From Azolla caroliniana (lineage: Eukaryota; Plantae; Polypodiophyta), in the NCBI GenBank assembly GCA_043228905.1, contig JBHGNT010000017.1, positions 12,710,001-12,774,000 on the forward strand: a DNA stretch of 64,000 nucleotides, written 5' to 3'. This document shows positions 6,387-59,700 of the stretch, piece by piece. A program made the position numbers and the translations under genes. The stretch's first letter is position 1. Each line of letters starts with the position of its first letter. The notes below the pieces were generated by a model, which saw only the letters and a list, made by a program, of their open reading frames with translations, was not told the DNA's origin and made no database searches.

Positions 6387-6387
6387 C

Positions 6388-9800: not shown

Positions 9801-11374
9801 AGGATATGCGGGGACTCCATCCTCAGTTGTATCAACACCAGATACATCTGAGTAAAGACACCAGACCGGAGGTGCAACGACGTTACCGGATGAACCTGAA
9901 TTACGCAGCAAAAGTCAAAGAAGAAATTGACAAGTTGCTAAGGGTTGGCTTCATCCAACCGGTAAAGAAAGCCACATGGCTCAGTCCGATAGTCGTCGTA
10001 CTGAAAAAGAACGGTAAGATAAGAGTTTGCGTCGACTACCGGAAATTGAATGCGGCTACGTTAGCAGACGCCTTTCCAATTCCATTCACAGATGGAGTCC
10101 TGGATGCGGTCGCCGGACATGAGGTGTACAGTTTTCTGGACGGTTTCAGCAACTATAATCAGATCCGGATGCACCCCGACGACCATGAGAAAACCTCTTT
10201 TGTCCCCGAATGGGGAGTCTTTGTTGTCGTAGTGATGATGTTCGGACTGAAAACGGTGCCGGCAACCTTCTAGCGGATCATCGTGGAGATTTTTGGAGAA
10301 TTCATTCCGGCATTCATGTAGGTGTTCTTGGACGACTTCGCTATTTATAGCCGGAAAGGGGATCACCTTCAGCACCTCCGACTATGTTTGGAGAAATGTA
10401 GGGTTTACCGACTAAGCCTGAACCCGGAAAAATGCGTGTTCGGAGTGGCCAATGGAGCGTTACTTGGCCACCTCGTGAGCAAGGACGGTATTGCAGTGGA
10501 TCCGGACAAGGTCAAAACTATTTTGGAGGCACCGGCACCAAACACGGCAAAGGCATTAAGCCGGTTCTTAGGACAAATTCGGTGGCATAGCTGAATGCTC
10601 CAGTATCTAGCAGACCTGGCTACACCATTGCATGTCGCGGTACATCAGACACCGTTCCAATGGACGGACACAGAAGACCAGGTTTACCGGGCACTAAAAG
10701 TACTGATGTCACAAGCGCTGGTGGTGCAACCTCCGGATTGGTCTAAAGAGTTCCATGTGTTCGTTGACGCGTCTGACATCACAATCGGGATCGTGCTTAT
10801 GCAACTTACAGAACCGAAATGGTACCGGCCAGTGTATTATGCCAGCCGGAAGCTGTCCCAAGCAGAACGTAATTATTCCACAATGGAAAGGGAGGCCTTG
10901 GGTATGATCTACAATGTCACCAAGTTTAGACACTATCTATTGGGAAGGATATTTTCGTTTCACGTAGATCATTCGGCGCTCCTCTACTTGGTGTCCAAAG
11001 CATCACTCACCGGTAAGCTTGCCCGGTGGACGTTACTATTACAAGAATTTGAGTTCGAGATATTCCACTGACTCGGCATACAACATGCGGTAGTAGACTA
11101 TTTGAGCCGGTTAGATTCCAGCGAAACTGGTGACGGCGTCCCAGACGACTTTCCGAATGCAGAGTTGTTTAGAGTTACAGCAAAAACGACAACTGATGGT
11201 ACGGTCGCAGAGGAAGACAAGTGGCTCACCAACATGCACCAATTTCTAAACACCGGTTTACCTCCGGAAGAAATGAACAGAGACGAAAAGAAACGCTTAA
11301 CGGTTCAAAGCTGGCACTTCTGTTTATTATAGGACACACTGTACCACAAAGGCGTAGATGGCATATGGCAACGT
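6874..11374 (+). pseudogene. pol: gag-pol of element B (Gag with CCHC knuckles, protease, RT, RNase H, start of integrase); many stops and frameshifts
   Basis: YPRYRDDPDTEAHV; CTTCLNAGHSMLEC; IIDGGSGVNVIS; WLSPIVVV..KNGKIRVCVDYRKLN; FLDD; FHVFVDASD; ERNYSTMEREAL. Confidence 0.92.
7261..7470 (+). repeat. 30-bp coding tandem repeat (EE.ERPPTPT-like) in gag
   Basis: GAGGA..GAAAGACCTCCGAC.. recurs every 30 nt. Confidence 0.75.
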
Positions 11375-12065
11375 TGTCGTGAAGAAAATCGTCCCCAGGC
11401 GCAAACCGTGTATAGTGTGTGTGAACCGGCCCTTACACGTGGGCACGTCCCTTGTCGTATAGTAGATAGGTAGGCACAAAGGTTAAATCCTAGGTAGCAA
11501 TATTCTATAAGGGAAATCGAGGAGTATCTCTGTCCGAAAGGACAGAGAATTAATGTGATGTAAACGGGTGAAACGGCCTCCCTCCTTGAGCTATAAAAGA
11601 GAGGGAGACGGGGGAGAGAAGATATCGCGCGCTAGAGGGGACGAAGTGCTGTCGGACTGGGACCGAGCTCTTCTTCTCTGTCGTTCTCCATAGCTTCTTT
11701 TGCGCATGTTCTCAGGAGGCTGATCCTGCTCCGTGGAACGCCCGTGTGCTTCCGGCAGAATCTCCATCTTGCTCTCTTGTGTGCGTGGGTGATCAGGCGC
11801 CGGCATCCATCCCACTGACCTAATCGGCTGTAACCGTTTGAGTCGTCTGCATACATGCAAATACATACACATATTTATATACATGCGCTAGTGTTCTCAA
11901 CTCGTGTCTCCTGTGTTGTTGGGCCGCGTCCCCGTGTGCTTCTTTGTCTATACGTGTGTGTTTTCTCTCTCTCTCTCTCACTCTCCCCTTTCCCTCACCT
12001 ATTCCTCGGTCCAAGACCCCAGTGATCCCGCCTTGTTCTCCACGCACGCGCGTAACAACGCGACA
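11375..12065 (+). repeat. 5' LTR of element C
   Basis: Near-identical to 18907-19598. TATAAAA at ~11592. Confidence 0.95.
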
Positions 12066-12069
12066 TATT

Positions 12070-12088
12070 TGGTGAACCCGACGTGAAT
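12070..12088 (+). promoter_or_regulatory. Primer binding site, tRNA-Trp
   Basis: TGGTGAACCCGACGTGAAT, 4 nt after the LTR end. Confidence 0.9.
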
Positions 12089-12108
12089 AGGCGGCAGAGG
12101 AGTAGAAG

Positions 12109-14233
12109 ATGAGGGGGTCGGACCTCGCAGAAGCCATGGCTTCGGCTGTGGACCGTATAGTGAGTGCGCGCGAAGGCACCGGTGCCCTTGATAGGGCTAT
12201 CGAGGTGGTTGTCGGTACGATCGGCCGGTTTAGTGGGAAGGATGCCACGAGCTACTTGGCGTCCTACCGGGCTGAGATGGTAATGAGGGACATTCCGGAA
12301 GAGAGGCGTCTAGCCGGATTCCCTCGAGTGGCGATGCCAGGCATCCATGCGGAGGTGCTCGAGGTACGGGCCGAGAGCCGGACCTGGGAGGAGTTCGAAG
12401 GTCGGCTCCTCGAAAGATACGGGCTTGAAGATGCGCTTCGACTTTCGAACCGGGACTTCATGGAGTGGGTGGAGACCCCCGACAAAGGAAGGAACACGTC
12501 AGTGCTCGTCCGGGTGTTTGAGGAACGCTTCGCATGCCTCTCGGTGCTTGACCAGACCGTTCTGGACACAAGCCGTGTCCTATTGTTTGTTAAGTCAGTT
12601 GATGAGTGGGATCGGGAGCAGGTATGCCTCCTATTGGAGACTGATGATGGGCTGACGGCCGACTGGGCCGTGGTGAAAAGGGTCTGTGGCTGTTTCGACA
12701 AATGGCGGGAATGGGTTGACAAAGGATCGACTGGGCGGGCTCTGTCACAACGAGGAAGCTCGACCAAACACCACCAACGTGAAGGGAAGAGACCCGGGAT
12801 TGGCTCGAGATCGGATTGGCTTCGACCAGCATGGTCAAGGGCTCGTCCGGGGGAGCAGCTCTGGAGGAACTTATGCGGATGGTAAGGGATCTCCAGATCG
12901 CCCAGGCACGGAGGGACGGTAGTGAACAGGGCCGTGACCGACGACCTCTGGCTAGAAAAAGGTGCATGTGGTGTGACGCGGTTGGGCACATCCGAAAGGA
13001 CTGCGGGGACTTCGTCGAGGCGATGAGAAGCAACGTGGTGTACCTGTGGAACGGTCGGGTGCACGCCAGCGAGACCCGAAGGGCCCTAGACCTGAACGTC
13101 GGGCGAGGAGGTATGAAAAGGTTGATGGAGGAGGCGGTGGCTCATCACGCAGAGACCGTCCACTACTCGGTGTCAGCTGGTATTCGGGTCGGAGGTGGCG
13201 AGGCCCCGAAGACAAACAAAGCCGGGTTCTGGCCAACGATGCTAGAAGGCCTCGCCGGCGCGCGACTAAGGAAAGAAGAGGCGAACCGCGCGGAAAAACG
13301 GGTCCGGGAGGTAACCGGGTGGAGTGACCTGGTGGAAGAAAAGACAGGCTTCGTCGAAGCAGCTTGTCAAAATTACGAGGCTCTGGTGGAGGACAAGCGG
13401 GTAGGAAAAACCGGAGGGGCCGAGCCCTCGCAACGATATGAAACTCGGTCCGGGCAAAGGCGGAATGAGGTCGATGCAACTGGCGCCCAGGATAATCCCA
13501 AGAGGGGCGGGTACCGGCTGGGCACAAAAATCGAAAGATCCATGGACCTGCGAAAGGTCCTGGAAGAACGAATCCTCGACAGCAAGGTGGAGCTATCGCT
13601 GAGGGAAGTGCTCGGGATCGCCAAGAAGGAGTTTCACGACTCCATCATAGACTTGGTGAAGAGGAAGAGGTTGTCACAGAGACAGAACCGGAGAAGCGGG
13701 TGGAGGTGCAAACGACGCACATAGAGGACATGGCGCTGGAAGACGAGTTGGCGGAGAGCCACTATTCGAGGCCACACTGGGCCAGAGCGACCACGGAGAC
13801 CCCCGTGAAGATCGGAGATGTTCATGAACCGGTGGTGGTGTTGGCGGACCACGGTTCAGAAATCAATTTGATGTCCATGGACTTCTATAAGAAGGGGAAA
13901 TGGCCGATCAACACCAAGCACGGGTGGAAAATACGGGCGGCGACGCATGCCACCGAAGAACTGCATGGAGCCTACCTGAACGTACGAGTAAAGATCGGCG
14001 ATGTCGAGATTGACCAGCACTTCTTCGTGCAGGAGACGCCCTCACATCCGGTTATACTCGGAGAACCGTACATCACGACAGCACAGATGGAGACCAAGGT
14101 GCTGGACAACGGCTCAGCCTATGCGAGGGTGAAGAGCCAGGATGGGCGTCACTCGGTCTAGTTCCTGACGGTGAAACCGAACCATGAGAGGAACCGCGAG
14201 ACCCTCGGGGGCGAAAGCCGGGAGGATTTTTGA
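12109..14233 (+). pseudogene. gag: gag-protease ORF of C (two frameshifts, one premature TAG); natural end ...REDF-stop
   Basis: ORFs 12109-12885, 12816-13724 (CMWCDAVGHIRKDC) and 13700-14161 (LADHGSEINLMS) are collinear with element D. Confidence 0.9.
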
Positions 14234-14290
14234 AGAGGGTTATCAAGGCGTTGGACCGCGATAGTCCGGACACTCCGGGAAAACCCCACA
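14224..14290 (+). promoter_or_regulatory. Putative -1 ribosomal frameshift signal (G_GAT_TTT_TGA + stem GGGTTATC/GATAGTCC)
   Basis: The pol ORF begins in the -1 frame at this heptamer, with a 6-nt spacer before the stem. Conserved in element D. Confidence 0.7.
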
Positions 14291-16559
14291 AGTCTGTGAT
14301 AGCAAAGAAGACCTATGTTATAAGTAGGAAATTTTGGTTCTCCGACAACGGAGGGTGTACGATAGTCGACGTTGTTGGCCGGAAGAAGAGAAGGGCGGAG
14401 GAGCGACTTCGGGCATGTGGCGTCCTCGGCCTCGGAGAGGAAATCAACCGACCCGTGGAGGCGGTCTCTTTCAACGATACCTTGGGGGAGCTGCGGGAGG
14501 TAGTCGGAGGAGTCCTTAAAGAGGACCGGACAATTCCAGTATGTTCGGAAAAGATGTACGAAGTCATCGCGGACTTCAGTAGAGGGCTCGAGTCGGATCG
14601 GACGGCCTGGGTGGACACGAGGTACAAGACTGTGGACCGGAAGGTGAGGCCAGTCGTGGCTCCCTTGCCGGAGGGCAGCGAGTTGCAAATACAGGGGGTT
14701 GTGTCAAACCCGAGTTTACGAAATCCGGCCCGCATAGGACACACGTTCACCAACATAACGTTGCGCGAGCTCAAAATCGGTGGGGGCGGCTTCCTACTGC
14801 TGGCGGAAGAGGACCGTTTTCGGGGAATGCTCGGAAGGCACGGGAAGGCTTTCGCATTCTCACCGAAGGAGATCGGGTGCGTAGACCCGACAGTCGTGGA
14901 ACCGATGATGATATTCACGGTACCGCATGTGCCGTGGAGTCTAAAACCGATTCCAGTTCCTAGAGCTCACATCCCGAAGCTGATGGAGCTGTTAAAGCAG
15001 AAGGTCGAGATGGGAATCCTCGAACCGTCGAGTGCCCCATACTCGAATCGGTGGTTTACCGTGCCGAAGAAGGACGGCACGCTGCGCTTTATTCAAGACC
15101 TACACCTGGTCAACAAGGTGACCATTCGAAACGCAGGAATCAGACCGACAATAGACGAGTTCGCGGAGGCCTTCGCCGGAAGGTCGATTTACTCGGTCGG
15201 TGATCTCTACTCGGGGTACGATCAGTTCCAGCTTGCCGTAGAGAGCAGAGACATCACGACAATGCGAACTCCTCTCGGCCTAGTACAGATGTGTACCCTG
15301 CCGCAAGGAGGGACGAACTCGGTGGCTCACATGGTGAACGCAATGAACAAAGTGCTGAGGGATTGTATCCCGGACATCACCATGCCATTTTTTGACGACG
15401 TCCCGATCAAGGGATGCCCGGTGGAGGAAAGGGACGAGACGATCGAACCGGACGGATGCCGGAAATTTGTGGTGACGCACATCGATGACTGCGAGAAGGT
15501 GCTACAGAGGTTGGAGGGCGCGAGGCTCACCTTCTCCGGGGGAAAGTCGGCCTTCGGGCAATCAGAGATCATTGTCGTTGGACACCTATGCGGGTTGTAC
15601 GGCCAGAAACCGTCTCCGGCTAAGGTAGAAGCCATCTCCGCGATGAAGAACGATTGTAGCTCGGTCACGGAGGTTCGGAGGTTCTTGGGAGCGTACGCGT
15701 TCTACCACATATGGATCCCGCATTACGCTCACGTCACGGAGCTGTTATACGGGTTGCTGAAAAAGGGGCGAAAATTCGAGTGGAGAGATGAGCATACGGA
15801 GTCTATCCGGAAGATGAAGGAAGCACTTGCCGCGGCTCCAATTTACGGAAAGAGCACTCCAATTTACGTAACGGTAGACACGAGTCCGACCGGGATCGGA
15901 TGGGTCGTCAACCAAGAGGACGAGGACGGCATGCGTTCCCCGATCCGGTTCGGCGCGAAGGTCCTCAGCGAGCGATAGCGAGGATACGCCCAGGTTAAAC
16001 GCGAGCTCTCGGGTATCGTTTCGGCGGTAAAGGCCGATAAAGACTACCTGATCGGGACAAAGGTAATTATCGAGACGGACTGCCTGCCGATCCTTGGCAT
16101 GGTTTCCGGATGCATGACGCCGGACCTGGCAATCCTCAGGTGGATAACGTACATCAAGTTCTTGAATCCGGAAATAGGACACATTTCCGGGAAAGACAAC
16201 GCCATGGCCGACATGCTTTCAAGGGCGAGGTTCGAAAACGACGGCGGCATGGTTTCAGAGGACGAGGAAGTCGGCGTGGACTTCTTCGAAGCGGCTTACG
16301 TAACAACCGGTAGGGAATGCTCTCCAACGCTTAACGATTTCGACGAGAGCAGGTACGACGGGGAGTGGCTGCAGATCGGTTGGTTCCTGAAAACAATGAC
16401 ACCAGACGCGGCATGGACAACGGACGAGGCCAACCGGATTCGGAAGAAAGCCTACCGATTCTTTCTCCGGGACGGATACATATGGAAGCACCCGAAGAAG
16501 AGGAACGACATCCCGCTCCGAGTGGTGGTGAAGAAGGAGGAACAGGAGGATTTGCTGGC
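14230..16559 (+). pseudogene. pol: pol (RT-RNase H-start of IN) of element C, premature stop at 15976
   Basis: SAPYSNRWFTVPKKDGTLRFIQDL; DLYSGYDQF; LPQGGTNS; PFFDD; VTVDTSPTGIG. Confidence 0.92.
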
Positions 16560-18310
16560 TGTTGAGTATTCGACGTTCCTTATGTCTGACGCTCGGCCAC
16601 AACCGAGATTCTTTTCATACACAGAAAAACAGGTAATGAAACGCGACACAAAGGGGAGAAATGGTACACAGGAGGTTTACGTGGAAAACCCCAAAATAGG
16701 GGAAAAACCACGACAGCCCACAGGCTGCAAACTGTCACTATGTAGGAATATACAACAATGAGTTCACTGAGGCGACGACCTCGTGCTCTCAGATCTTCGC
16801 CACAGGCGGCGGTTACAACAGAGGCAACGACCTCGTCTCTCTCTCTCTCTCTCTCTCTGTACAGTTATGCACTCTCGCTTCTTCTTGCACCAACAATGAA
16901 GAATCACAACAACAAAAACGACACACCTAAAAGTTTGCCCTAAGTCATATTTATACTAATATGACTTCTCGGCTATTTACAAATGTAGCCTCGATGGGCT
17001 CTCAGAAACATATTTACGAATATGTCTCTTCCTCTGGTTCATACCGGGCCTGCACCATCCGGCTCTTCGTAGTCGGGTACTCCCCATCCGGTTCATACCG
17101 TTTCTACACCATCCGGCTCTCCGCAGTCGGGTACTCCCCATCCGGTTCATACCGGGTCTACACCATCCGGCTCTCCGCAGTCGGGTACTCCCCATCCGGT
17201 TCATACCGTTTCGTCGGCACTGTTCTTCTCCCTTCCCATCCGGAGGGACCTGTCTCCCAACAAACTCCCCCTTCACTCCGGCATGGGGTGTCTTTCCAGC
17301 CCGATCCTCTTCCGGCATGCGTCCAGCTTGTCGGGTGTCAGCACTTTGGTCAGCATATCTGACCCGTTCTCGGCCGTGTGGATCTTCGCCAGTGCGAACT
17401 CCTGGTCATCTACCCTTTCCCGGATCCAATGATACCTCCGCTGGATATGCTTCGTCCGGGAATGGTAGGCCGCATTCTTAGCAAGGTGGATGGCACTTTG
17501 ACTATCGCAGTAGAGTCGGTATTCCTCTTGCCGGATACCGAGCTCTCCGATGAAGTCCTTCATCCATAATATTTCCTTGCCGGCTTCTACAGCCGCCATG
17601 TACTCCGCCTCTGTGGTTGACAATGCAACCGTCTTCTGCAGCCTCGACTGCCACGAAACAGCTCCCCCTGCATATGTCATCACATACCGGATGTAGACCG
17701 GCTGGTATCCACATCAGCCGACATGTCCGAATCGGTGAAACCGTCTAGTTGAGGTTTCCCGGAGCCGAATCGGAGACACATATTTGAAGTGCCCTTCAAA
17801 TACCGGAGTACCCATTTGACCGCGTTCCAATGCTCCTTGCCGGGATTACTCATGAACCGGCTCACCACTCCGACTGCGTATCCAATGTCCGGTCGGGTAC
17901 AAACCATTGCGTACATCAAGCTCCCGACGGCAGAGGCATATGGAATCTTCATCATATCTACCTTCTCTCCTTTTGTCTTCGGGTTTTGCTTGCCGAACAA
18001 CTTGCAGTTTGCCGGGAGTGTCGATCCGACCGGTTTTGCATCTGACATGTTGAACCGGTGAAGCACCTTTGTCACATACTTCTCCTGTGACAGCCATAAT
18101 TGCTTCACTGACCGGTCCCGAATGATGTGCATCCCCAACATCTGTCTTGCCGGACCCAAGTCTTTCATTGAGAAGGTCCGGTTGAGAGCCTTCTTCAGCA
18201 TCCGTATTTTGCCTTGATCTCATCCGACGATCAACATGTCATCCACGTACAGGAGAAGTATCAGGAAGTCCCCTCCTTCGAACTTCTTCACGAACACGCA
18301 GTGATCGGCC
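16560..18310 (-). mobile_element. Ty1/copia 3' fragment (RT end, RNase H, PPT, 3' LTR 17262-16560) nested in element C
   Basis: YVDDML region; PYASAVGSLMYAMVCTRPDI; VALSTTEAEY; HSRTKHI; PPT TGAAGGGGGAG; LTR ends TGTTG...CAACA. Confidence 0.9.
17036..17212. repeat. 54-bp tandem repeat (~3.2 copies) in the copia LTR
   Basis: GGTTCATACC starts at 17036, 17090, 17144 and 17198. Confidence 0.9.
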
Positions 18311-18830
18311 GACCGAGCTGATGTTAGGACAGAAGCCGATCATGCCAACAGAGCGAACGATCTCCTCGTGGGCCACGGTGGACTGGAGGGATGAGATGAG
18401 CCGGGAGGAACTGTTGGCGGCGCGGATTCGACAGCTCGAGCGGAGGCCGGAGGACGTAGAGCGAGCCGCGGAGAAACTTCGGGTAGCGAGGATAAGGAAC
18501 AAAGCCCGGTTCGATCGAACACACCGGTTCAGGCCAAGGAAGATTGAGGAAGGCGACTGGGTGCTAGTCTACGACAGCAGCCTCGACAATCAGCACAGGG
18601 CCACGCGGAAGTTTGCGAGGAGGTGGTTCGGGCCTTACGTAGTAATAGGCGCCAACGGCAATGGGACGTACCATCTCGCGGAGCTCGACGGTACAAGAAT
18701 GGCGATACCGGTAGCGGGGAAGAGGATCAAAGCGTTCAAGAAACGGCACGACGGGGAGCCGGAGCTAGGGGGCATGGACAGCGACAACGAGCAGCCCGAG
18801 GCGGAGGATGAACCAGTAAACGAGGAATAA
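18311..18830 (+). pseudogene. Integrase C-terminus (GPY/F motif) of element C
   Basis: GDWVLVYDSSL...KFARRWFGPYVV; homologous to the end of the 36902-40582 ORF. Confidence 0.9.
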
Positions 18831-18906
18831 AAGCAAGGATTGGTTTTCTCCCGTAGGAACCCAATTTTGGCGCATACCGGTGGATGCGCGGTTAGGTGGG
18901 GGCGGA

Positions 18907-19598
18907 TGTCGTGAAGAAAACCGTCCCCAGGCGCAAACCGTGTATAGTGTGTGTGAACCGGCCCTTACACGTGGGCACATCCCTTGTCGTATAGTAGATA
19001 GGTAGGCACAAAGGTTAAATCCTAGGTAGCAATATTCTATAAGGGAAATCGATGAGTAGCTCTATCCGAAAGGACAGAGAATTAATGTGATGTAAACGGG
19101 TGAAACGGCCTCCCTCCTTGAGCTATAAAAGAGAGGGAGACGGGGGAGAGAAGATATCGCGCGCTAGAGGGGACGAAGTGCTGTCGGACTGGGACAGAGC
19201 TCTTCTTCTCTGTCGTTCTCCATAGCTTCTTTTGCGCATGTTCTCAGGAAGCTGATCCTGCTCCGTGGAACGCCCGTGTGCTTCTGGCAGAATCTCCATC
19301 TTGCTCTCTTGTGTGCGAGGGTGATCAGGTGTCGGCATCCATCCCACTGACCCGATCGGCTGTAACCCTTCAAGTCGTCTACATACATGCAAATACATAC
19401 ACATATTTATATACATGCGCTAGTGTTCTCAACTCGTGTCTCCTGTGTTGTTGGGCCGCGTCCCCGTGCGCTTCTTTGTCTATACGTGTGTTGTTTCTCT
19501 CTCTCTCTCTCTCACTCTCCCCTTTCCCTCACCTATTCCCCGGTCCAAGACCCAGTGGTACCGCCTTGTTCTCCACGCACGCGCGTAACAACGCGACA
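18907..19598 (+). repeat. 3' LTR of element C
   Basis: Follows the PPT-like GGTTAGGTGGGGGCGGA and matches the 5' LTR. Confidence 0.95.
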
Positions 19599-23934: not shown

Positions 23935-24374
23935 TGTTACCCGGCCGACAGAGGAGTTAAAGACCAGAATGTGAAAGGCATGGGTTATTCGGAATAGATC
24001 ATAATTAAGTAGTTTATGAGATGTGAACGGACGGACCGGAATCGGTATGCCGATCCGGATCCGGACTGGTTCTGAATAGGTGTCGGTTGGCACCGTTTTG
24101 TACTCACCACCGATGACCTATATAAAGGCCCGGTTACAATGTAAAACTTGACGGATAATTAATAGAGCTTCTTGTTTTATCTTTAAGTATTGATTACCGT
24201 TCTGTACTAATTGTTCTATCATACGCGTGTATCAAGTCTAATGCCATATTGCTAAGTAACCAATTAAGTCTGATTAATCGTTGTGTCTCAAGCTATCTCG
24301 CCATAACACCCCTTTGGTGAAGTGTCTTCCATAGACACCCTGTGTTAGGCCATTGTCCGGCCCTAAGAAATAAC
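23935..24374 (+). repeat. 3' LTR of element B
   Basis: Starts TGTTAC, has TATATAAA at ~24119, and its 3' part matches 6670-6821. Confidence 0.85.
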
Positions 24375-27459: not shown

Positions 27460-27504
<45 letters not shown>

Positions 27505-28935: not shown

Positions 28936-28944
28936 GATATGAAA

Positions 28945-30031
28945 ACTATGTAAAAAAATAATGAAATAATTATTTTAGATTAGATTAGTAGCTTGTTATA
29001 GAAAGATGGATGTACTCAAGAGCTTTACAACGCATTTCACTACATACAAAATGGAAGTTATGAGAACATGAAGTTTGAGAAGATAGGGAAAATAAAACTA
29101 TGATTTATCCCACATAGATAGGAAACTTAAGGCCCTGGCTATATAAGCACATTGAGATCCCTCATTTTTCTTTTGTGCTAAGAGCACTTTGGCCACTTTG
29201 TTTAGATGGATGAATCTGGCCAAGTTACCAAAAAACCAAATTGGAACCGGCCGGAAAGCAAACCGGAACCCGTCGGTAAGCAATCCGGAACCCGCCGGTA
29301 AGAAAACAGGAACCAGTTGGTAAGCAAAACCAGAACCGGCGGCGGAGCTGGTGAGGCGGCACCAATCGGCGACCGAACGAAACCGGTGACTGGACGAGGC
29401 TGGACGCAAACCGAACGAATAACAAGATCATGTGGCTAATTAAAGTGAAGTGAAGAAAACTAAAGTAAAGGTCATGTGGACGGTCGCATACAACTAAAAG
29501 AAAAAGCCATGCAACTAAAAGAAAAAGTTATGCAACTAAAAGTAGAGGCCATGCAACAAAAAGTGGAAAGGCTATGATCAATAGAGAACTCCATATATAT
29601 TCCATTTTTTTTCCTACACTCATTCTCTCTCCATTTTTTATTTTTCTTTTCCTTCTTAGCTCCCTTATATTATCTAAAATAGAACTCTCATAAACCCTAA
29701 TTTCCTTACGGAAGCCATTAACCCTAAATTTCCTTACGGAAGCCAAAAACCCTAAATTTCCTTACGGAAGCCATAAACCCCAAATTTCCTTACGGAAGCC
29801 ATATCTCTCAAAACCTCTAATTTTTCTTTTCTATTAATCTTAGTAAACCTAAATCTTCTAAATCCCAATCTTGGGACATATTGTAATTTCTTTTCCTTTG
29901 TTAATGAAAATTATTAAAATTTCTCCTTTATCTTAATTCTTAAAAGTATAAACGCACGAATTTGATATCCTCCGGTCGGAGGCCCCGGGATCTGCCTCAA
30001 GTTCACGTATCCTCGTCATAATTTCACGACA
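28945..30031 (+). repeat. Long LTR (TGTCG...CGACA type), first ~20 nt missing
   Basis: Reverse-complement homologue of 57906-59290. Ends TTCACGACA, followed by GCGG. Confidence 0.8.
29692..29800 (+). repeat. ~28-bp tandem repeat x4 with telo-box AAACCCTAA and a TTCC-TTAC-GGAA mini-hairpin
   Basis: AAACCCTAA(A)TTTCCTTACGGAAGCC units are directly visible. Confidence 0.85.
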
Positions 30032-40582: not shown

Positions 40583-43500
40583 TCCGAAACCGAGGAAGAA
40601 CCGACGGGCGGAGAATGAAGGTTGGACCGGTTTTTCTCCGTCCCAACACAATCTGGCGCATGCCGGTGGATGTGCGGTTAGGTGGGGGCGGATGTCGTGA
40701 AGAAAACCGTCCACAAGCAGAATCGGTGCACCGGAGCGTAGGAACCGGCTCTTCATGCACGTGCACCTTATGTTGTGCATAGGAGATCCTAGGCAGGCAG
40801 ATTCGGTAGGTAGGAAGTAAAGGGGAAACGGCTCCTTCCTTGCCTATAAAAGGAGGGAGACGAGGAGGGGCGAAGGGATCGCGGAGAGTCGAGGACGAAT
40901 TGCTGTCGGTTTGTGTGCCAAGGCTTCTCTCTCTCTCTGGTTCGCAAACTCCATAGCTTCCTTCTGTGCAGGTTTCGGGAGGCTCGCGTTGCTCTGAGGA
41001 ATGCCCGAGTGCTTCCGACAGCACCTCCAACCTACTCCTTCCTTTCTGTGCGTTTACGAACAGGTATCGGCATCTGTTCGCCGGCCTGTTCGGTTGTAAC
41101 CGACTTCGTGTTTTGTTGTTTGTCTTTGTTAATGCACACATACATTCGTGTCTCTCTGTGTCGCTGTCCCACTCACTTCTTTGTGTCGAAGGGCCGTGTC
41201 CCTGTGAATCTACTCTCCCACGTAGTGGGTCTCTTCTCCTCTCTCTCTTGTTCTTCAGTGCAGGACCCCCGAGGTCCCGCCTCATTCCACGCATCCGCGA
41301 GGAATACCTCGACAGCGTTCTAGTGCTCTTTTCCGGGATTGTTCATGAACCGACTCACCACTCCGATTGCAGATCTAATATTTGGCCAAGTGCACACCAT
41401 TCAATACATTAGACTTCCGACTACAAAGGAATATGGAATCTTCATCATATCCATCTTCTCTACCTTTGCCTTTGGGATTGGCTTTCCAGATAGCTTGCAG
41501 TTTGGAGGGAGTGTCGATCCGACATGTTGAACCATTGAAGCAGCTTTATCACGTACTTCTCCTATGACATCCACAACAACTTCTTCGACCGGTCCCAGAT
41601 GATGTGCATCCCCTAAACCTGTCTTGCTGGACCCCAGTCTTTCATTGAGAAGGTCCGGTTTAGGGCCTTACTCAGCATGTGTATCTTGACTTGGTCTCAT
41701 CTGACGATCAACATGTCGTCAACGTCCAGAAACAATATCAGGAAATCTCCTCCGTCAAATTTCTTCACAAACACACAATGATCAGCTTGCGTCTTGTGGT
41801 ACCCTTGATCCATCATGAAGGAGTCGAACTTCCAGTACCATTGCTAGGGGGCTTGCTTCAAGCCGTATAAGCTCTTCTTCAGTCGGCACACTAGTTGTTC
41901 CTTCCCTTTCTTCTCAAATCCTTCCGGTTGATGCATTTAGATCTCTTCTTCGAGGTCACCATGTAGGAATGTCGTCTTGACGTCCAATTGCTCTGCCTTG
42001 AGTTCCATGCTTGCCGCTATGCTCAATACCCTCCGGATGGATGTCATCTTTACTACCGGGGCAAAGATCTCATCGAAATCCACACCTTTCTTTTGTTAGA
42101 AACCCTTCACCAAGATTCGGGCCTTGTACCTCGGTGGATTTCCGGCATATACCGGTTTCAGCTTGTACACCCACTTATTCCAGAGTGCTCTCTTTCCTTT
42201 CAATAGCTCTGTCAATTCATATGTGTGGTTCTCATGCAGGGAATCCATCTCGTCCTGCATGACACTTAACCACTTGTAGGTGTGGGTGTCTTTCTTTGCT
42301 TCTTCGAAGCTTTCCGGCTCCCCCTCATCGGTCAGCAATTCGTGCTCTGCATCTGGAAATCTCCAGGGGCTCTTCTCTCTCTAAGAGGGTATCTTCATCC
42401 TTGGTTTTCAGAAACCAGTTCATCTATTTGTTCCAAATCCGAATCTGTTTCAGGGTCTTGTCCGGTTCTAGTTTCAGCTTCCCCTTCTTCTTCTTTGATC
42501 GGTTCAGTTTCTACTCCGAATCCGGCCAGTTCTTCGAGTGTCATCCGGCTTCCGGCCGGAATGGTCCTCAGCTCCTTCAGTTGATCTTTGCCTGTCGACC
42601 CAGAATTCATTATCCTTTTCTCAGACTCCCTGTCGACAATGGTCTTGTCCTCCATGAAGATATCGCCGTATCCAAGGAATATGCATGGTGTGGACTTCGG
42701 ATCTAGCTTTTCTCTCTTGTCCTTTGCAACATGTGAGACACCCGAACACCTTCAGATGCCAGTAAGACACATGTTTACCGGTCCATACTCTCTGTGGTGT
42801 GTCTCCGTCCAAGGGTGTTGAGGGTGATTTGTTTATCACATACGTCGTCGTCATCAGTGCCTTAGTCCAAAACGTCTTGGGTAGCTTTACATGTGCCAGC
42901 ATGCTCCGGACTCTCTCCATCACGATCTGGTTCATCCGTTCGGCCAGCTCATTTTGTTCCGGCGTCTTCGGCATAGTGAATTCGAGTTAGATTCCCTTCG
43001 ATCAACATTACTCCTCGAACTGCCCCCGGTACTCTCCTTCGATATCTGCTCGAACAGCCTTCAGCTTCCGACCGGTTTCTCTTTCCACTCTCGCATGGAG
43101 TTCCTTGAAGATAGACAACACCTGATCCTTCGTCTTCAACGGTGAGACCCACAACTTTCGGCTATGGTCATCTATGAACATCACGAAGTACTGCCATCTG
43201 GCATGTCACGTCATGTCCACTTGACACACATCGGTATGCACTAGCTCCAGTGGTGCATTCCGTCTCCTCGGTGGTCTTGATTGGAAGGAGGTTCGGTTTT
43301 GTTTGGCGGCCAAGAAATCGGTGCACTTCTCAAGATGCACGTCTTTCACCTCCGGAATGAGGTTGTCTTCAGCAAGTCTTCTCATCCGCTTTTGGCTCAT
43401 ATGACAAAACCTTTTGTGCCACAGCTCACCGGTAGTGTCGGATGCTACATTCACTTCTTCCCGGCATATCCGAGCATGCATCAAATACAATGTCTTGATC

Positions 43501-45551: not shown

Positions 45552-47338
45552 ACCATGATTTCGACTTGTCAAATACTACATCTCAGCTCACTCAAACTTG
45601 TTTTGTTCGAGGGTTATAGCACTTATAAACCTTTTGCTCATGTGAGTAGTCGAGAAGGATACTGTTAGAGACATGAACTAATGTAAGCATTAAATAAGGA
45701 TAGAATATAGATAAATAGATAGAAAGGAGAGAGAGAAAGAAGGGTGCCGATCCACTCGACCACCCCCGAGCGAAGGGATCGAGACGGACTTGAGCCTCAA
45801 TCGGCGTCCCATATCACTGTCGTGGCGTCGAGTCGTACCTGGTGTTGGCGCGCTCGCTACAAGAGTTGACCCACCACAAGACAGAGTCTCGACGTAGTCA
45901 ACCAGATGCTCAAATGAGGGTAGCTAGGCCTCTTATTTATAGTGATACCCAAGGCCCCCAGGCAAGTTCACACTTGGCCTAATGGGTTGTCTCAATCCCG
46001 AGGATTAAAAGTAATCCTCCCCTTCTTTACACTCTCGTTTAACCCTCACACTTATCCACGTATATAGAATACTACGGTAAATTCTCGCCACGGGATATTA
46101 TATGGTCATGCCCGTAACAGATACACTTCTCCGACTTCATGTCCAGCTTTCTCCACCTCTCATCCAGCCCATGCACATAGACAATGTTGTTGAATACCCC
46201 TAAGGTCTCGTAAATTCGGCTTATGCCTGAAATATAGCTCGTGTGCTGACACCTTATCCCCAATCCGGTTTTGGATGTAGACGGTTGTGCGGACCCCCTC
46301 GGCTTGTAGAACTTGGGCATGCTTTTATCCTCAAGCATTACCCTTGCCGCCTCCATAATCTATTCGCCAAGTGCAACCATGGTTGTCCAAGAAGTAAGTG
46401 GTATGCTCCCGGAGCGTCAAAGACCAAGACTACCGCCGACATGTCCCTTTGTCAAGTGTTGTTGAGCTCTTGCCGGAGCCACAACTTCCGGACCGTTGTG
46501 CTTGCCGTGAAAATATTCTTTAAATTCTCCCAAGATTCTTTCGACATTTTTTCATCCTTGATGTAGCCGAGCATCTGGTCATGCACACAGGACATGAGGC
46601 AGTACAACACTCTGCTCACTCCTTGCTCCCATGCCGGGAAGTCCTTGTGTGCCATCTCCGACGCTACTTCATTCACTCCCTCGACATAGCTCCAATAACC
46701 GTGTCCAAGCAGCAACTGGTGCATCTTGTAAGACCAAGATGCATAATTGCTTATGTCGAGGTTCTCCGTCGGAAGCGAGTTTATCATTCTTCTGTCCATT
46801 CTTTGTTAGGTCCGTTCTCTTTCCCAGAAGTTACGTTTTCTTTGGTCTACTTAAGCTTTCTGTAGGCAACAAAGACTTCTCAACCCTCACACTCTAATAC
46901 CATGAAAAGAATTATGTGTGGAAGCTTGAGGACCTAACTAACTTCACTGGATGTTAACATAAAACATACACAGGTTTAATGGAAGCTTCAAAACACACAG
47001 AGAATACATGAGAGAGATAGAGAGAACAAAACAACATAAAATCAATTCAAATTAACAGTCTATACATACAATGTGCTCAGAGAGCACTTTTATACAAGTC
47101 CTTAAAAGGACTGACAAAAGTACCGACATGTACTTCAATTCTCATACAAGCAACTGACACTAACTCCAAGAAATATGCCTACGTACTAGGTTGGGACTGT
47201 AGGCCTCTAATGGCTTACCGGTTGCAATCTAATCTGGTTCTCAGATCCGGCTCTTGGTTCCGGATACCGATCCGGACACCAATCTAGTTCTCAGTTCTGA
47301 ACTTCGATCCGGATCCAGTTGAGCTTGTCCACTCAACA
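45552..47338 (-). mobile_element. Deleted Ty1/copia of the H-like family (5' LTR 47338-46903, PBS 46902-46891, gag and IN remnants)
   Basis: ENLDISNYASWSYKMHQ; KLDMKSEKCI; TGGTATTAGAGT. Confidence 0.85.
45663..46119 (-). mobile_element. Solo LTR with a 5-bp TSD
   Basis: TGTTA...TAACA termini with GATAC on both sides (45658-45662, 46120-46124). Minus-strand CTATAAATA. Confidence 0.9.
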
Positions 47339-50017: not shown

Positions 50018-50078
50018 GTACAAATGATGAAAACTAAGCTTACTAGGTTGCTCTTTTTATAGGGAGAGGGAGGAGAGA

Positions 50079-50920: not shown

Positions 50921-51154
50921 TATGGCAAAGTCACATGCTAGTGCACAATATTTTGTGACCTTCATAGATGACTACAAAAGGAAATTATGGGTCTCCACAT
51001 TGAAGACAAAGGACCAAGTGAAGAGTGGAAAGAGAATCTGGACAAAAGCGGAAGGCTATCCGGACGGACAATGGAGGGGAGTACAGAGGGCAGTTTGAGG
51101 AATACAGTCGAACCCAAGGAATTCAGCTGGAAAACACTTCACCGAAGACTTGAG

Positions 51155-54100
51155 GGAATCGGACCGACCATAGACGAGTTCGCGGAGGCCTTCGCCGGAA
51201 GGTAGATTTACTCGGTCGGTGATCTGTACTCGGGGTATGACCAGTTCCGACTAGCCGTGGAGAGCAAAGACATTACGACGATGCGAACTCCCCTCGGCCT
51301 AGTGCGAATGTGTACCCTGCCACAAGGAGGGACCAACTCGGTGGCCCACATGGTAAATGCAATGAACAAGGTACTGAGGGATTGCATCCCGGACATCACC
51401 ATACCATTTCTAGACGACATCCCGATCAAGGGGTGCCTGGTGGAAGAGAAGGACGAGACACTCGGGCCGGACGGATGCCGGCGATTCGTGGCAACACACA
51501 TCGACGACTGCGAGAAGGTGCTACAAAGGCTAGAGGTTGCGAGGCTCACCTTCTCCGGGGAGAAATCGGCCTTCGGGCAATCAGAAATCCTGGTGGTCGG
51601 ACACCTATGCGGACCATATGGCCGGAAGCCGTCTCCGGCAAAAGTAGAAGCCATCTCCGCGATGAAGACCGACTGTAGCTCGGTTACGGAAGTTCGGAGG
51701 TTCCTGGGGGCGTGCGCATTCTACCACATATGGATCCCGCATTACGCCCACGTTGCGGAGCCGCTATACGGGTTGCTGAAGAAAGGGAGAAAATTCGAGT
51801 GGCGAGACGAGCACACGGAGTCGGTCCGGAAGCTGAAGGAAGCTCTTGCGGCAACACCGGCGCTCCGGAAGGCTGTCTACGAGAAGGGTACCCCGGTATA
51901 CATAACGGTGGATACGAGTCCGACCGGGATCGGATGGGTCGTCAACCAAGAAGACGAGGACGGCATTCGGTTCCCGATCCGATTCGGCACGAAGGTCCTC
52001 AGTGAGCGACAACGAGGGTACGCCCAGGTTAAACGCGAACTCTGGGGTATCGTTTCGGCAGTAAAGGCCGACAAAGACTACCTGATCGGGAAAGAAGTGA
52101 TTATCGAGACGGATTGCCTCCCGGTTCTCGGCATGGTTTCCGGATGCGTGACACCGGACCTGGCGATGCTCAGGTGGGTAGCATATATCAAGTCCCTGGA
52201 CCCGGAAATACGACACATTTCCGGAAAGGACAACGCCATGGCCGACATGCTTTCGAGGGCGAGGTTTGATGACGAGGGTGGCATGGTTTTGGAGGATGAA
52301 GAAGTCGGCATGGACTTTTTCAAGGCAGCGTACGTGACGACCGATGGGACGAGCACTCCGGCGCTTAACGGCTTCGACGAGAGCAAGTATGACGGCGAGT
52401 GGCTCCAGATCGGTGGTTTCTTAAGGACAATGACATCGGATGCGTCGTGGACGAGGGACGAGGCCAACCGGATCCAGAAGAAAGCATACCGATTCTTTCT
52501 CTGGGACGGATACTTATGGAAGTACCCGAAGAAGAGGAACGACGTCCCGCTCCGGGTGGTGGCGATGAAGGAAGAACGGGAGGAGCTGCTGACGGCCTAC
52601 CACGACAGCGCTTGGGCTGGACACCGTGGAACGTGGGCCACGTTCGAGAAGATAAAGGGGAAGTACTGGTGGCCGGGACTGTACCGGGACGTGCATCGGT
52701 TCGTGACAACTTGCGAGAGCTGTCAGATGCACTCCATAGTCCGACATCGGGATGAGCTTCACCCTATGTACCCTCCGACCATCCACTTCAAATGGATGGT
52801 AGATCTGGTGACGATGTCGATGGGGGTAGGACAGATGCGGTATCTGGTCCTGGCTCGGGAAGATCTGACGAACCAGGTGGAAGGCCAAGCCCTTCAGAAC
52901 AAAACGACCGCGGCCGTATGTCGGTTCCTGATCGAGGACGTGATATGCCGGTACGGGTGCGTCGGGAAGATCGTGGCTGATCGCGGGGAGTTGGATGCCG
53001 AAGAGGCCGAGGAGTTGTTCGACCGGCTAGGAGTCAAGCTCTCACTTACCACTGCGTACAATCCGGAGGCGAATGGGAAGGTGGAGCGCGGACACAGACC
53101 GATCGTCAAGGCATTAGTTCGGGCATGCGGAGGTCAAGTCGGGAACTGGCCGCGGCTGTTGCCTTACGCGTTGTGGGCGGACGGAACTACGCACAGTTCG
53201 GTAACCGGATTCATGCCGGCAGAGCTCATGTTTGGGCAGAAGCCGATCATGCTGATGGAACGTACGATCTCCTCATGGGCAACCGTGGACTGGAAAGACG
53301 AGATGAGCCGGGAGGAACTGTTGGCGGCGCGCATACGACAGCTCGAGCGAAGACCGGAGGACGTGGAGTAGGCTGCGGGAAAGCTTCGGGTGGCAAGGAC
53401 GAGGAACAAAGCCCAGTTCGACCGGACGCACTGGCTCCGACCAAAGAAGATCGAGGAAGGCGACTGGGTGCTAGTCTACGACAGCAGCCTCGTCAACCAG
53501 CACCGAGTGACACGGAAGTTCGCAAGAAGGTGGTTCGGGCCTTACGTGGTACAAAGCGCCAACGACAACGGGACGTACCACCTGGCGGAGCTCGACGGCA
53601 CGAGAATGGCGATACCGGTAGCTGGGAAGCGGATCAAAGCGTTCAAGAAGCGTCACGACGACGAGCCGGATCCGGTTAACCTGGACCACGACGACGAACG
53701 ATCCGAAACCGAGGAAGAACCGACGGGCGGGGAATGAAGGCTGGACCGGTTTTCTCTGTCCCAACTCAATTTGGCGCATGCCGGTGGATGCGCGGTTAGG
53801 CGGGGGCGGATGTCGTGAAGAAAACCGTCCACAAGCGGAATCTGTGCACCGGAGCGTAGGAACCGGCTCTTCATGCACGTGCGTCTTATGTAGTACATAG
53901 AAGATCCTAGGTAGGTAGATCCGGTAGGTACTTAATGGGAAACGGCTCCTTTCTTGCCTATAAAAGGAGGGAGACGAGGAGGAGTGAGGGATCGCGGTGA
54001 GAGAGGACGAAGTGCTGTCGGGTTGTGGGCCGAAGGCTTCTCTCTCTTCCATACTCCGTAGCTTCTTTCTGCACAAGGTTTCGGGAGGCTCGCGCTGCTC

Positions 54101-54430
54101 TGAGGAATGCCCAAGTGCTTCCGGCAGCACCTCCAACCTACTCCTTTCTTTTTGAGCGTTTACGAACAGGCATCGGCATCTGTTCGCTGGCCTGTTCGGT
54201 TGTGACCAACTTCGTGCTTCTTGTTGTTTGTCCTTGTTAATATATATATACATACATTCGTGTCTCTCTGCGTCGTGTCCCACTCGCGTCTTTGTGTCGA
54301 AGGGCCGTGTCCCTGTGAATCTACGCCCACTCGTAGTGGGTCCCTTCCCTTCTCCTTTGTCTCTTGCTCTTCGGTACAAGACCCCCGAGGCCCCGCCTCA
54401 TTCCATGCATCCGCGAGGAATACCTCGACA
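51155..54430 (+). mobile_element. pol: Element E: 5'-truncated copy of the D family (pol 51155-53737 with TAGs at 51202 and 53369; 3' LTR 53811-54430)
   Basis: Near-identical to 38036-41314. LTR TGTCG...CGACA is followed by GCGT. Confidence 0.95.
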
Positions 54431-56362: not shown

Positions 56363-56799
56363 TATGTGTGTGTGTTTTTCCGGTTAGCTTAGGTGTGGAT
56401 ATACGTGTGTGTGCGTTTCCGGTTAGCGTAGGGTTCAAGTGAGGGTGCGTGCGTGGTTGCCGAGGTAGGTGTGCCGGTAGTAACCGGGTGTATATGTGTG
56501 TATGTGACCGGGCTATGACCCGCACCTCTTTTGAGGCCCTTGTACATACGGGCAAGAGGGTCGTGTGGATACGCCCTTCTTTCTAGAGTCCGGGTTGTTT
56601 CCGAAATGCCTCCGGAACGGTTCGGATCGGTCTTCCCCAAACATATCCCGGGATTGATCCAGTTGGCAACGTGACAGACTTCGGAGGATTCGGCCTTCCG
56701 GAGACTCCTCTCCTCCTGGTCCATGACCCCGGTGGTCCCGCTCGGATCCGACATGTAGGCGCAGGATTCTGCGACAACGATAATCGGACTTAGCCATGT

Positions 56800-59700
56800 A
56801 GCTTATTTTACCGGTCTGATAAAATCGAGCCTCAGCAGCTTGTCGATTTCTTCTTTGACTCTCACTGCATAATTCGGGTTCATCTGGTACCTCCATTGCA
56901 TTATCGGTTTCGCGTCCTTGTTGAGTTGAATTTGATTGTGGTATAGTTGGGGATCCAACCCTCGCATAACTTCTTATGACCAGGCGAACACGTCTTGAAA
57001 TTCTTTGAGCTCTATTGTTGCTTTCTTTTCCTCCGAGAGCAATTCCTTTGCCACGTACACCGCTTTTGGTGCATCCTCAGTCCCAAGGTCCACCTCTTCT
57101 AGTTGAGATGCCTTCACTTGTTGAGATACCGCCATTTCTCGTTCCAACGATTCTTGTGCTTGTCGTAGTTCACGGATCGCCTCCCAATTTGGCTCCTCAT
57201 GGACTTCCTCTGAGTGCATGACGTACGGTGTGACGGCTTCGACAATATCTACTTCAAATAACGGAACTATCTTTGGGTGTTCATCTAGGTAGCGGTCGAC
57301 TTCGTCGTCTGTTGATCCATCCAACATGTTTATGCTCTTTGCATATAATGGTGGTAGCTCCTTACTGGTACCCACACGTGGGTGGGTCGAGACCCGTACC
57401 TTCATCTTTCCTCTGTAGAAGGTAATTACTAATGATGTTCCTCTGCCTATTTTGCTTTATATGTGTTGTCCTTAGCCATGGTCTCCCTAACAACAGGGGA
57501 TACGCTCCCTGTGCATTGAGTTGCAAGACTACCACAGATATCATGAAATCATGCCCACCAATTGTAATCTCCAAGTTCCGGATGAGTCCGGTTGGCCGAA
57601 CCCAACTGATATCTGCCATACGCAGCCAGAACGGCCATGGTTCCCATTCTCTGATACCTACGTTGTCGCAGGTTCGTTGGCTTATCACGTTTACTCTAGA
57701 ACATAGAGACTTTGTGCTTCAATGTATGAATACCCCTTCTTAGGAAGGAGACATATATCAAAAACACATGTATACTCTGGTCCCATAGGTCAAAATTGGC
57801 CTCTTTATGGACGATAGAAATTCCAATTCTAATTCTGATTCCGGTTATTTCTTTTCCTTTAATGATAGCTATTATTGTTGGATTACTGGTGTCCACTATT
57901 GCCGATGTCGCGAAAATACGACGAGGATACGTGAACGTTGAGGCAGGACCCCGGGGCCTTTGATTAGAGGATATCAGATTTGTGTATTTATGTACTAAGA
58001 ATTAACCGAAATGAGAAAGATTAACAAATTTCATTAACAAGTAGAAAGAAAGATTACAATCAATCCCAAGATTGGGATTACAAAAGTTTTATCTTAAGGA
58101 GATTGCTAGAATAATAGATTAGAAGAAACTAAGATATGGATTCCATGGAGATTTAGGGTTCTTGGCTTTCATAAGAGATTATGGTTATATGAGTATTACG
58201 GCTTCCGTAGGGAAGATTAACGTTTTTGAGTGTTATGGCTTCTGTAGGGAAGATTAGGGTTTACTTAAGAGATATGGCTTCGATAAGATAAGGGAGCTCC
58301 AAAGGAAAAGAAAAACAATATAATATGGAGAGTCCCAATATAGGAAAAAAATAGAATATATATGGTGTTCCCCGTTGATCATATGCATGTCTACTTTTTG
58401 TTGCATGGCCTCTACTTTTAGTTGCATAGCTTCTTCTTTTAGTTGCATGGCTTTTTCTTTTTGTTGCATGCGACCGTCCACATGACCTTTACTTTTTGCA
58501 TGCACTCCAACTTTAGTTGCTTGCGTCCACATGGCCTTTACTTTAGTTCTCTTCACTTTACTTTAGTTTGTTGCATGATCCAATCTTCCGTCCGTCTGCA
58601 TCCAACCTCGTCCGGTAGCCGGTTCCGCTCGATCACCGAATCCCTCGCCGACCGGTTCCGTTTTGCTTGCCGGCCGGTTCCGGTTCTGGTTTTGCTTGCC
58701 AGTTCCGGTTCCGGTTTTGCTTGCCGGCCGGTTCCAGTTTTGCATACAGGCCGGTTTCCGGTTTACATACCAGTTCCGGTTCCAGTTTTGCTTACCGGCC
58801 GGTTCCGGTTTGCTTGCCGGTACCGGTTCCAGTTTTGCATACCGGCCAGTTTCCGATTTGCATACCAGTTCCGGTTTTGCTTGCCGGCCAGTTCCGGTTC
58901 TGGTTTTGCTTACCGGCCAGTTTCCGATTTGCATATCGACCGGTTTCCGGATTTGCTTACCGGCCGGTTTCCGGTTTTAGGGAATTTGGCCACCATCATC
59001 CATCAAGACAAAGTGGCCAAAGTGCTCTTAGCACAAATGAATAATGAGGGAGCTCAAGGTGCTTATATAGCCAGGGCCTTAACTTTCCTATCTATGTGGG
59101 ATAGTTCTAATTTCCCTATCTTCTCAAACTTTATTTTGACATAACTTGATATGTATTTCTCCATTTTGTATATAGTAAAATACATTTTGAAGCTCTTGAG
59201 TATATCCATCTTTCTATAGTAAGATACTAATTTAATCTATAATAATTATTTCATTATTTTTTTACATAGTGTGTGAAGATTCACACGACACCGGTCCTTC
59301 CTTTGGGTTGGAAAAGAAGGCCGGTGTTGGCTCCAGGTTTTTTAGCCCTATCACCGATTGGAGTCATTCTGTAAATCAAGGGACTAACTGTAATACACGA
59401 CCTAGTGGTAGCATGATGTGACATTCTTGTAACGCTTGATAGGTTGAGTCATCATCTGTGGTTTCTATTAGTGTTCCCGAAGGTTTGAGCTGTCGTCGCA
59501 GCTCGACCGTGTTTCATTCATTGGCTTTCTCTATCCATTCGGTAGCCTGCTTTCAGATGGCCTCTTGAGTCTCCCACTCGGTAGTTTTCCCTTTAGCTCT
59601 TGTGGTGACTTGTTGAACGTCGGTCACCTCTACGGTTACCATATTCACCACCAACTGCTTTTCGTTGGTCTTGCTCGGGTAATGACTACTATAATGTCCT

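What the first reader, a model, noticed from the sequence alone, without database searches (positions are those of the whole stretch)
11371..59294. All TGTCG...CGACA elements sit in 4-bp CpG-centred target sites, mostly GCGT
Seen: C is flanked by ACGT/GCGT and D by GCAT/GCGT. E is followed by GCGT (54431), A' by ACGC (6670, the reverse complement of GCGT), and A probably by ACGC (2205, eroded end). The solo LTR 57906-59290 is flanked by CCGA/CCGG, and the LTR ending at 30031 is followed by GCGG. All seven insertions fit NCGN, and the TSD mismatches are transitions at C/G. An unrelated solo LTR (45663-46119) has an ordinary 5-bp GATAC TSD. Known: most plant LTR elements make 5-bp TSDs with weak sequence preference, while some Drosophila errantiviruses make sequence-specific 4-bp TSDs. 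Inference: a CpG-reading, possibly methyl-CpG-reading, integrase without a chromodomain could steer insertions into other transposons and explain the dense nesting.
Basis: partly seen in the sequence, partly recalled or inferred. Interest (0 to 1): 0.8.

Follow-up and report, generated by a model that had tools for sequence, protein, structure and literature searches.

The report
Fern retrotransposons that insert at CpG
A group of jumping genes in what is likely a fern genome sits almost only in four-base sites centred on CG, a habit already reported for the moss Phygy elements, and this likely steers them into other CG-rich transposons; whether they also read DNA methylation is untested.

Summary
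The CpG-centred 4-bp target is real and genome-wide. 461 of 510 non-PBS LTR ends of one family are followed by NCG, against 3.25% background. All 65 paired target-site duplications (TSDs) keep CG on at least one side; 38 are perfect 4-bp, none perfect 5-bp. Two details fail: the commonest site is ACGT, not GCGT, and A is an inverted member of one compound array, so six insertions count, not seven. The elements are chromodomain-less Ty3/gypsy with a tRNA-Trp primer site, in a likely fern host. Neumann 2019 already gives 4-bp NCGN TSDs for the moss Phygy lineage, and Phygy is reported in ferns. So this is most likely a new member of a known kind; no Phygy reference was available for a tree. New here: the motif H-[V-CG-B]-D, and targets in repeats in 97 of 109 cases against 425 of 600 motif-matched CpGs. 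CpG content explains about half of the nesting; methyl-reading, chromatin targeting or selection may explain the rest.

The parts
11375..19598 (+). Element C, CpG-targeting Gypsy; LTRs 11375-12065 and 18907-19598 (3.0% apart); carries a nested Copia-like fragment at about 16666-18309; itself inside another Gypsy
11371..11374 (+). Left TSD of C, ACGT (right copy GCGT at 19599-19602)
34385..41314 (+). Element D, 6930 bp; LTRs 34385-35006 and 40693-41314 (3.5% apart); TSD GCAT (34381-34384) / GCGT (41315-41318)
35010..35027 (+). Primer-binding site of D, 18 nt complementary to the 3' end of the host's tRNA-Trp plus CCA
36809..40582 (+). pol frame of D: RT, RNase H, integrase in Ty3/gypsy order
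39428..40579 (+). Integrase of D: zinc finger, DDE core with clade-specific D-R-G-E, SH3-like end, short tail; no chromodomain or methyl-CpG-binding domain
51146..54430 (+). Element E, 5'-truncated; 3' LTR 53811-54430 followed by GCGT (54431-54434)
5660..6669 (+). A', last LTR of a compound A-type array; followed by ACGC (6670-6673); left ACGC at L101:1826-1829, outside the window
1422..2203 (-). A, inverted LTR inside the same array, eroded 5' end, tRNA-Trp primer site at about 1400-1416; not an independent insertion
57906..59290 (-). Solo LTR of family B (same lineage); TSD read on the element's strand CCGG/TCGG
28945..30031 (+). Family-B LTR lacking its first ~20 nt; followed by GCGG (30032-30035)
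17820..17823 (+). Empty paralogue of D's target, one copy of GCGT
24223..24226 (+). Empty paralogue of the A-array target, one copy of ACGC
45663..46119 (-). Control: solo LTR of a chromodomain-bearing Gypsy family with 5-bp TSD GATAC/GATAC

Best explanation
These are chromodomain-less Ty3/gypsy LTR retrotransposons, likely of the Phygy lineage, that sit in 4-bp V-CG-B target sites, and their integrase likely reads the central CG as sequence while bending the target there. Shown: the 4-bp duplication, the near-absolute CG, the anatomy, one integrase clade, and the excess of targets in repeats. Inferred: the intasome cuts with a 4-bp stagger and unstacks the central step as foamy-virus integrase does (its consensus is V-YR-B), and base contacts narrow YR to CG; the conserved Glu three residues after the second catalytic Asp and the conserved SH3 loop are candidate readers. 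Because CpG is scarce in this genome's AT-rich gene-bearing DNA and common in young transposons, the sequence rule alone sends most copies into other elements. Loss of copies that hit genes likely adds to that. The flanking CpGs are then methylated and decay to TG or CA on one side.
For: 461 of 510 non-PBS D-type ends followed by NCG against 3.25%. 181 of 206 unselected flanks CG, the other 25 all TG or CA. 65 of 65 pairs with CG on at least one side (61 of 61 without the four from the CG-constrained search), 38 perfect 4-bp, 0 perfect 5-bp. Control family about 1 of 57 (by eye). The other YR steps (TA, TG, CA) never occur on both sides. Families A, B, D, E fall in one integrase clade (100/99) with Riccia proteins, apart from chromoviruses (the A-type integrase is assigned through L103). 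Best structural matches are foamy-virus and Ty3 integrases. Motif-matched CpGs lie in repeats 425 of 600 times against 284 of 600 for any position. About 10 of 109 targets have no repeat match. Phygy: 4 bp 100% NCGN, tRNA-Trp 81%, no extra domain.
Against: Targets are in repeats more often than CpG content predicts: 97 of 109 against 425 of 600, difference 0.08-0.29 by region bootstrap. Removing the 32% of non-repeat CpG flanks that are open frames raises the expectation only to about 0.81 against 0.91 (my arithmetic). 23 of 109 targets lie in the lineage's own copies against 53 of 600. So something beyond the 4-mer acts, and selection as its cause is not shown. The candidate residues rest on a DNA-free monomer model (pLDDT 78.6, pTM 0.54) and on recalled foamy-virus numbering. 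No tree with a Phygy reference.
Confidence: 0.7

Rival explanations
1. The integrase core prefers 5-methyl-CpG at the centre of the site, so methylation itself is the address that keeps copies in silent transposon DNA.
For: Residual repeat excess over motif-matched CpGs (97 of 109 against 425 of 600); higher CpG density around targets (median 11 against 9 per 200 nt, p=0.005, not corrected for clustering); no chromodomain, yet more nested than the chromodomain control (8 of 23).
Against: No MBD, SRA or chromodomain; about 10 of 109 targets in non-repeat DNA; TSD decay is of the same order as ordinary post-insertion decay; repeat status is only a proxy, and CpG is depleted in non-repeat DNA too (o/e 0.3-0.6), so that DNA may also be methylated.
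Confidence: 0.15
2. CG is read as plain sequence, and a separate chromatin cue (a host tether, or timing of access to heterochromatin) adds regional targeting.
For: Own-lineage nesting 23 of 109 against 53 of 600; repeated use of the same sites in repeats; Phygy enriched at liverwort centromeres (PMC12885004, passages).
Against: The integrase tail after the SH3 fold is only about 15-20 residues and poorly conserved; selection against gene hits could give the same excess.
Confidence: 0.12
3. Only DNA flexibility is selected (any pyrimidine-purine step), and CG dominates because targets are GC-rich.
For: Central YR preference is general for 4-bp integrases (PMC4422553, passages).
Against: TA, TG and CA are each about twice as common as CG in background yet occur on both sides in 0 of 65 pairs.
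Confidence: 0.02
4. Artefact: LTR ends misplaced, so the CG belongs to the element.
For: The termini themselves contain CG (TGTCG, CGACA).
Against: Inner LTR ends abut the primer site and purine tract and fix the boundaries; the outer bases of the 4-mer vary between insertions but match within a pair; empty paralogues carry one copy.
Confidence: 0.01

Closest known systems
Phygy (Ty3/gypsy, non-chromovirus; Neumann et al. 2019, PMC6317226; passages and supplementary table 5 read)
   Same: 4-bp NCGN TSD, tRNA-Trp primer site, no chromodomain or other extra domain, coding region filling nearly the whole inner part.
   Different: Defined from the moss Physcomitrella patens, 7656-9968 bp; here a likely fern host, D-type copies about 6.3-7.3 kb, plus shorter deleted A and B copies. 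The paper gives only NCGN; here V-CG-B with G disfavoured at -1 and C at +1 outside. In the passages read it offers no mechanism.
Prototype foamy virus integration (PMC4422553, passages read)
   Same: 4-bp TSD, consensus V-YR-B, T and A disfavoured at the outer positions; top structural matches of the model.
   Different: A weak preference for any YR step there; a near-absolute CG here. Ala188 there, Glu at the matching place here (correspondence from recalled motif numbering).
Drosophila Gypsy-group elements (PMC3276498, passages read)
   Same: 4-bp sequence-specific palindromic TSDs shared by clade.
   Different: Listed motifs are ATAT, TATA, TRYA; not CG-centred.
CopiaMBD of arthropods (PMC6673714, abstract and opening read)
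   Same: Accumulates in CpG-dense, methylated transposon regions.
   Different: Copia with a captured methyl-CpG-binding domain; no such domain here, and here CG is the cut site itself.

Membership tests
Phygy | Ty3/gypsy domain order RT-RH-INT | tested here: met
   Pfam on D, C and E frames
Phygy | No chromodomain | tested here: met
   None at E<=1 in D integrase, P0001, P0035, while three control integrases score 27-31 bits
Phygy | No additional (archaeal) RNase H | tested here: met
   One RNase H stretch in D pol, no second RNase H family
Phygy | 4-bp TSD of form NCGN | tested here: met
Phygy | Primer site for tRNA-Trp | tested here: met
   18-nt match; 6 of 6 fetched host loci called tRNA-Trp(CCA); seen in families A, B, C, D
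Phygy | Length 7656-9968 bp | tested here: inconclusive
   D-type mostly 6.3-7.3 kb, below the moss range; C is 8224 bp only with a nested fragment. The paper calls size of little weight for classification
Phygy | Falls in the Phygy clade of RT/RH/INT trees (the primary criterion) | not testable with these tools
   The paper's sequence and element files were too large to read; no named Physcomitrella protein among the 240 listed hits. The tree shows a separate clade with Riccia proteins, without a Phygy reference
Phygy | Host range as first defined: P. patens only | tested here: not met
   Host gene is closest to Ceratopteris and Adiantum (58-60%) against 42% for Ceratodon; later papers name Phygy in ferns (PMC13477047) and a liverwort (PMC12885004), so this no longer defines the group
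Chromoviruses (Tcn1, Galadriel and others) | Chromodomain at the integrase end | tested here: not met
   separate clade
TatI (4-bp TSD, tRNA-Trp) | Additional RNase H in 100% of elements | tested here: not met
CopiaMBD-like methyl readers | Encoded methyl-CpG-binding domain | tested here: not met
   No MBD or SRA match in gag, pol or integrase

The most novel reading that the evidence does not exclude
An old clade of Gypsy elements shared by mosses, liverworts and ferns has an integrase core that reads 5-methyl-CpG at the cut site, using host methylation as its safe-harbour address with no reader domain.
Probability: 0.15. Interest if true: 0.75.

Novelty: new member of a known kind. Interest (0 to 1): 0.3.

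Why it matters
The NCGN rule is in print as one sentence and one table cell (only one retrotransposon paper came up for NCGN). This genome shows it is close to absolute and shared by several families with thousands of LTR ends. It also shows how a plain CG rule can act as gene avoidance without a chromodomain, since CpG here is concentrated in transposons. For annotation, 5-bp-TSD filters will miss these elements. If the integrase proved to read methylation, it would be a new way for a retroelement to use the host epigenome; nothing here shows that.

Tried and rejected
Strand bias of TSD decay as a trace of methylation at the time of insertion: right side 10 TG / 7 CA, left 5 CA / 3 TG; no usable signal. 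Moss host: my first guess, rejected. 'Copia' for the control family: rejected, it is a chromodomain Gypsy. Target rule in relatives from metagenome contigs: 80 loci, many with TGTCG/CGACA ends and the Trp site, but contigs are collapsed; outer flanks were readable at four ends in three loci (CCGT, GCGG, CCGC, ACGT) and one was CTGC; too few to count on. A named Physcomitrella relative: none. Expression: no RNA holder listed; two poly(A) runs added by species label gave 450 and 268 reads, mostly under 95% alike, so relatives are transcribed weakly at most and this says nothing on these copies. No methylome was available; the search for fern methylation papers listed none that I read. Literature searches for a mechanism or a fern report of the rule found none; subscription papers are not covered. 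Rows dropped before the flank counts: 4 left flanks read as purine-tract variants and 5 right flanks read as primer-site variants or array junctions (106 to 102, 123 to 118), then 14 from the CG-constrained search.
Full report
Observation. Self-alignment fixes C at 11375-19598 (ACGT/GCGT), D at 34385-41314 (GCAT/GCGT), E's 3' LTR at 53811-54430 (then GCGT), the solo LTR at 57906-59290 (CCGA/CCGG) and the control solo at 45663-46119 (GATAC/GATAC). Two empty paralogues in the window carry one copy of the 4-mer (17820-17823 GCGT, 24223-24226 ACGC), so these are duplications made at insertion. A' gains a perfect partner: ACGC precedes the first LTR of a compound array at L101:1826-1829, about 8.2 kb upstream of the window. 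A is an inverted member of that array with an eroded start and a head-to-head junction at its other end, so there are six independent insertions, not seven.

Genome-wide test. The D-type LTR end occurs 931 times; 421 are followed by the primer site and 461 of the other 510 by NCG, 90%. Background NCGN is 3.25% in 60 evenly spaced 10-kb stretches of contigs C1-C5 and 5.7% in the window. For family A, of the first 100 of 1814 listed ends, 38 are primer sites and 59 of 62 others are NCGN, 3 NTGN (by eye). For the control family about 1 of 57 is NCGN (first 100 of 1799, by eye). In fetched loci, 181 of 206 flanks not selected for CG are CG-centred and the other 25 are TG or CA (dropped rows are listed under Tried and rejected). 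Of 65 pairs (10 A, 17 B, 38 C/D), 38 are perfect 4-bp, all CG-centred, none is a perfect 5-bp, and none lacks CG on both sides; four pairs came from a CG-constrained search. The motif is H-[V-CG-B]-D: T is rare first (3-4%), A rare last (1-3%), G rare at -1 (7%), C rare at +1 (9%). ACGT leads (48 of 206) and GCGT is 20 of 206, so 'mostly GCGT' is local. TCGA, the commonest NCGN in background (11%), was not seen among the 220 flanks.

What the elements are. D encodes RT, RNase H and integrase in Ty3/gypsy order with DUF4100 upstream and no chromodomain, whereas the control family has one. The primer site matches the host's tRNA-Trp over 18 nt. Families A and B share the termini and primer site, with gag about 34-37% and pol pieces about 44-74% identical to D. 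Their integrases form one clade (100/99) with Riccia proteins, marked by D-R-G-E where other Gypsy integrases of this genome have D-R-D-P, D-R-G-P or D-Q-G-G (35 rows, midpoint root, a long-branch warning). LTR pairs differ by a median 2.2% in 31 elements. A host antiporter exon is closest to Ceratopteris and Adiantum, so the host is likely a fern; an earlier scan note suggested this.

Known status. Neumann et al. 2019 (PMC6317226; passages; supplementary table 5) state that Phygy elements prefer NCGN: 186 elements, 4 bp in 100%, tRNA-Trp in 81%, no extra domain. Its element list and sequences could not be read, so the tree criterion is untested. PMC13477047 (one passage) says ferns contain Phygy; PMC12885004 (passages) finds it enriched at liverwort centromeres; PMC6911290 (passages) notes Phygy nested in Tcn1 and GC-centred 4-bp TSDs. 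My searches found no paper on the mechanism or on the rule in a fern.

Mechanism. Retroviral integrases with 4-bp TSDs bend the target at a central pyrimidine-purine step; the foamy-virus consensus is V-YR-B (PMC4422553, passages). V-CG-B is a subset of it, and the model of D's integrase (pLDDT 78.6, pTM 0.54) matches foamy-virus and Ty3 integrases best. Bending alone cannot be enough, since TA, TG and CA are commoner than CG and unused. Base reading is therefore inferred. Candidates are Glu148 of the modelled piece (68 of 70 rows), which by recalled numbering sits where foamy virus has the target-contacting Ala188, and the conserved L-x-x-Q-H...K-F-x-x-R-W stretch of the SH3-like end. These are leads only.

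Does it steer into transposons, and is methylation read? Right-hand flanks (200 nt) match another fetched locus in 97 of 109 cases, against 425 of 600 motif-matched background CpGs, 284 of 600 random positions and 8 of 23 control insertions; with the background-only library the counts are 89 of 109, 372 of 600, 248 of 600 and 7 of 23. So the CG rule covers a little over half of the rise from 47% to 89%. The rest survives a bootstrap over regions (difference 0.08-0.29). After a protein-level rescue the figures are 99 of 109 and 449 of 600; discounting the 32% of non-repeat CpG flanks that are open frames gives about 0.81 expected against 0.91 (my arithmetic). Own-lineage targets are 23 of 109 against 53 of 600. 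The residue fits methyl preference, a chromatin cue or loss of copies near genes, and standing insertions cannot separate these. The library is incomplete and many loci come from C1 and C2. The TSD transitions (29 of 31 mismatches) are post-insertion decay: the central CG differs in 7 of 31 pairs, against 12.9% of CpGs between LTRs. The known methyl-reading retroelement, CopiaMBD (PMC6673714, abstract and opening), uses a captured domain that is absent here.

Verdict. Observation real with two corrections; most likely a fern member of the Phygy lineage showing its published target rule; sequence readout of CG most likely (0.7), methyl-CpG readout open (0.15). Interest 0.3.

Noticed in passing
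L101:1830 to window 6669 (G000:C17:12701830-12716669): A 14.8-kb compound array of A-type copies under one ACGC/ACGC duplication, with tandem LTRs, a head-to-head palindromic junction at a primer site (L101:8568-8584) and a short inversion at window 6388-6479. A concatemer, later rearrangement or assembly error.
   Followed up: partly
window 34381-34384; L048; G000:C7:12354050: The same Copia-like site is hit repeatedly: D at GCGT, L048 in the opposite direction at the neighbouring CCGC, and a third copy at ACGT. Other right flanks recur two or three times on different contigs. Hot spots or duplications.
   Followed up: no
window 45663-46119 and L136-L165: The control is a chromodomain-bearing Gypsy, yet its insertions lie mostly in AT-rich non-repeat DNA (8 of 23 in repeats, median GC 0.37), the reverse of the usual expectation.
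   Followed up: partly
window 2955-5105, minus strand: A 716-codon open frame without Pfam match, with gag-like and decayed RT-like stretches, lying inside the A array; almost no match in the fetched loci.
   Followed up: partly
L068 and L121: Copies inserted into their own lineage's signals: one in the CG of a primer site, one in the CCGG just before a purine tract.
   Followed up: no
G000:C8:17.80-17.82 Mb and C16:4.99-5.11 Mb: Clusters of the tRNA-Trp 3' end, at about 1.2-kb spacing on C8; 63 matches genome-wide.
   Followed up: no
window 58650-58980: Family-B LTRs carry an array of 23-24-bp CCGG-rich repeats, a store of potential targets for the lineage.
   Followed up: no
window about 7700-11370 and 19599-20514: C interrupts the pol of a different Gypsy clade (D-Q-G-G type). 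I did not check whether it is the purine-tract-less family of earlier scan notes.
   Followed up: no
L166-L225: The genome is two-toned: AT-rich stretches (GC 35-38%, CpG o/e 0.3-0.6) and GC-rich stretches (45-55%, o/e about 0.8-1.1).
   Followed up: partly
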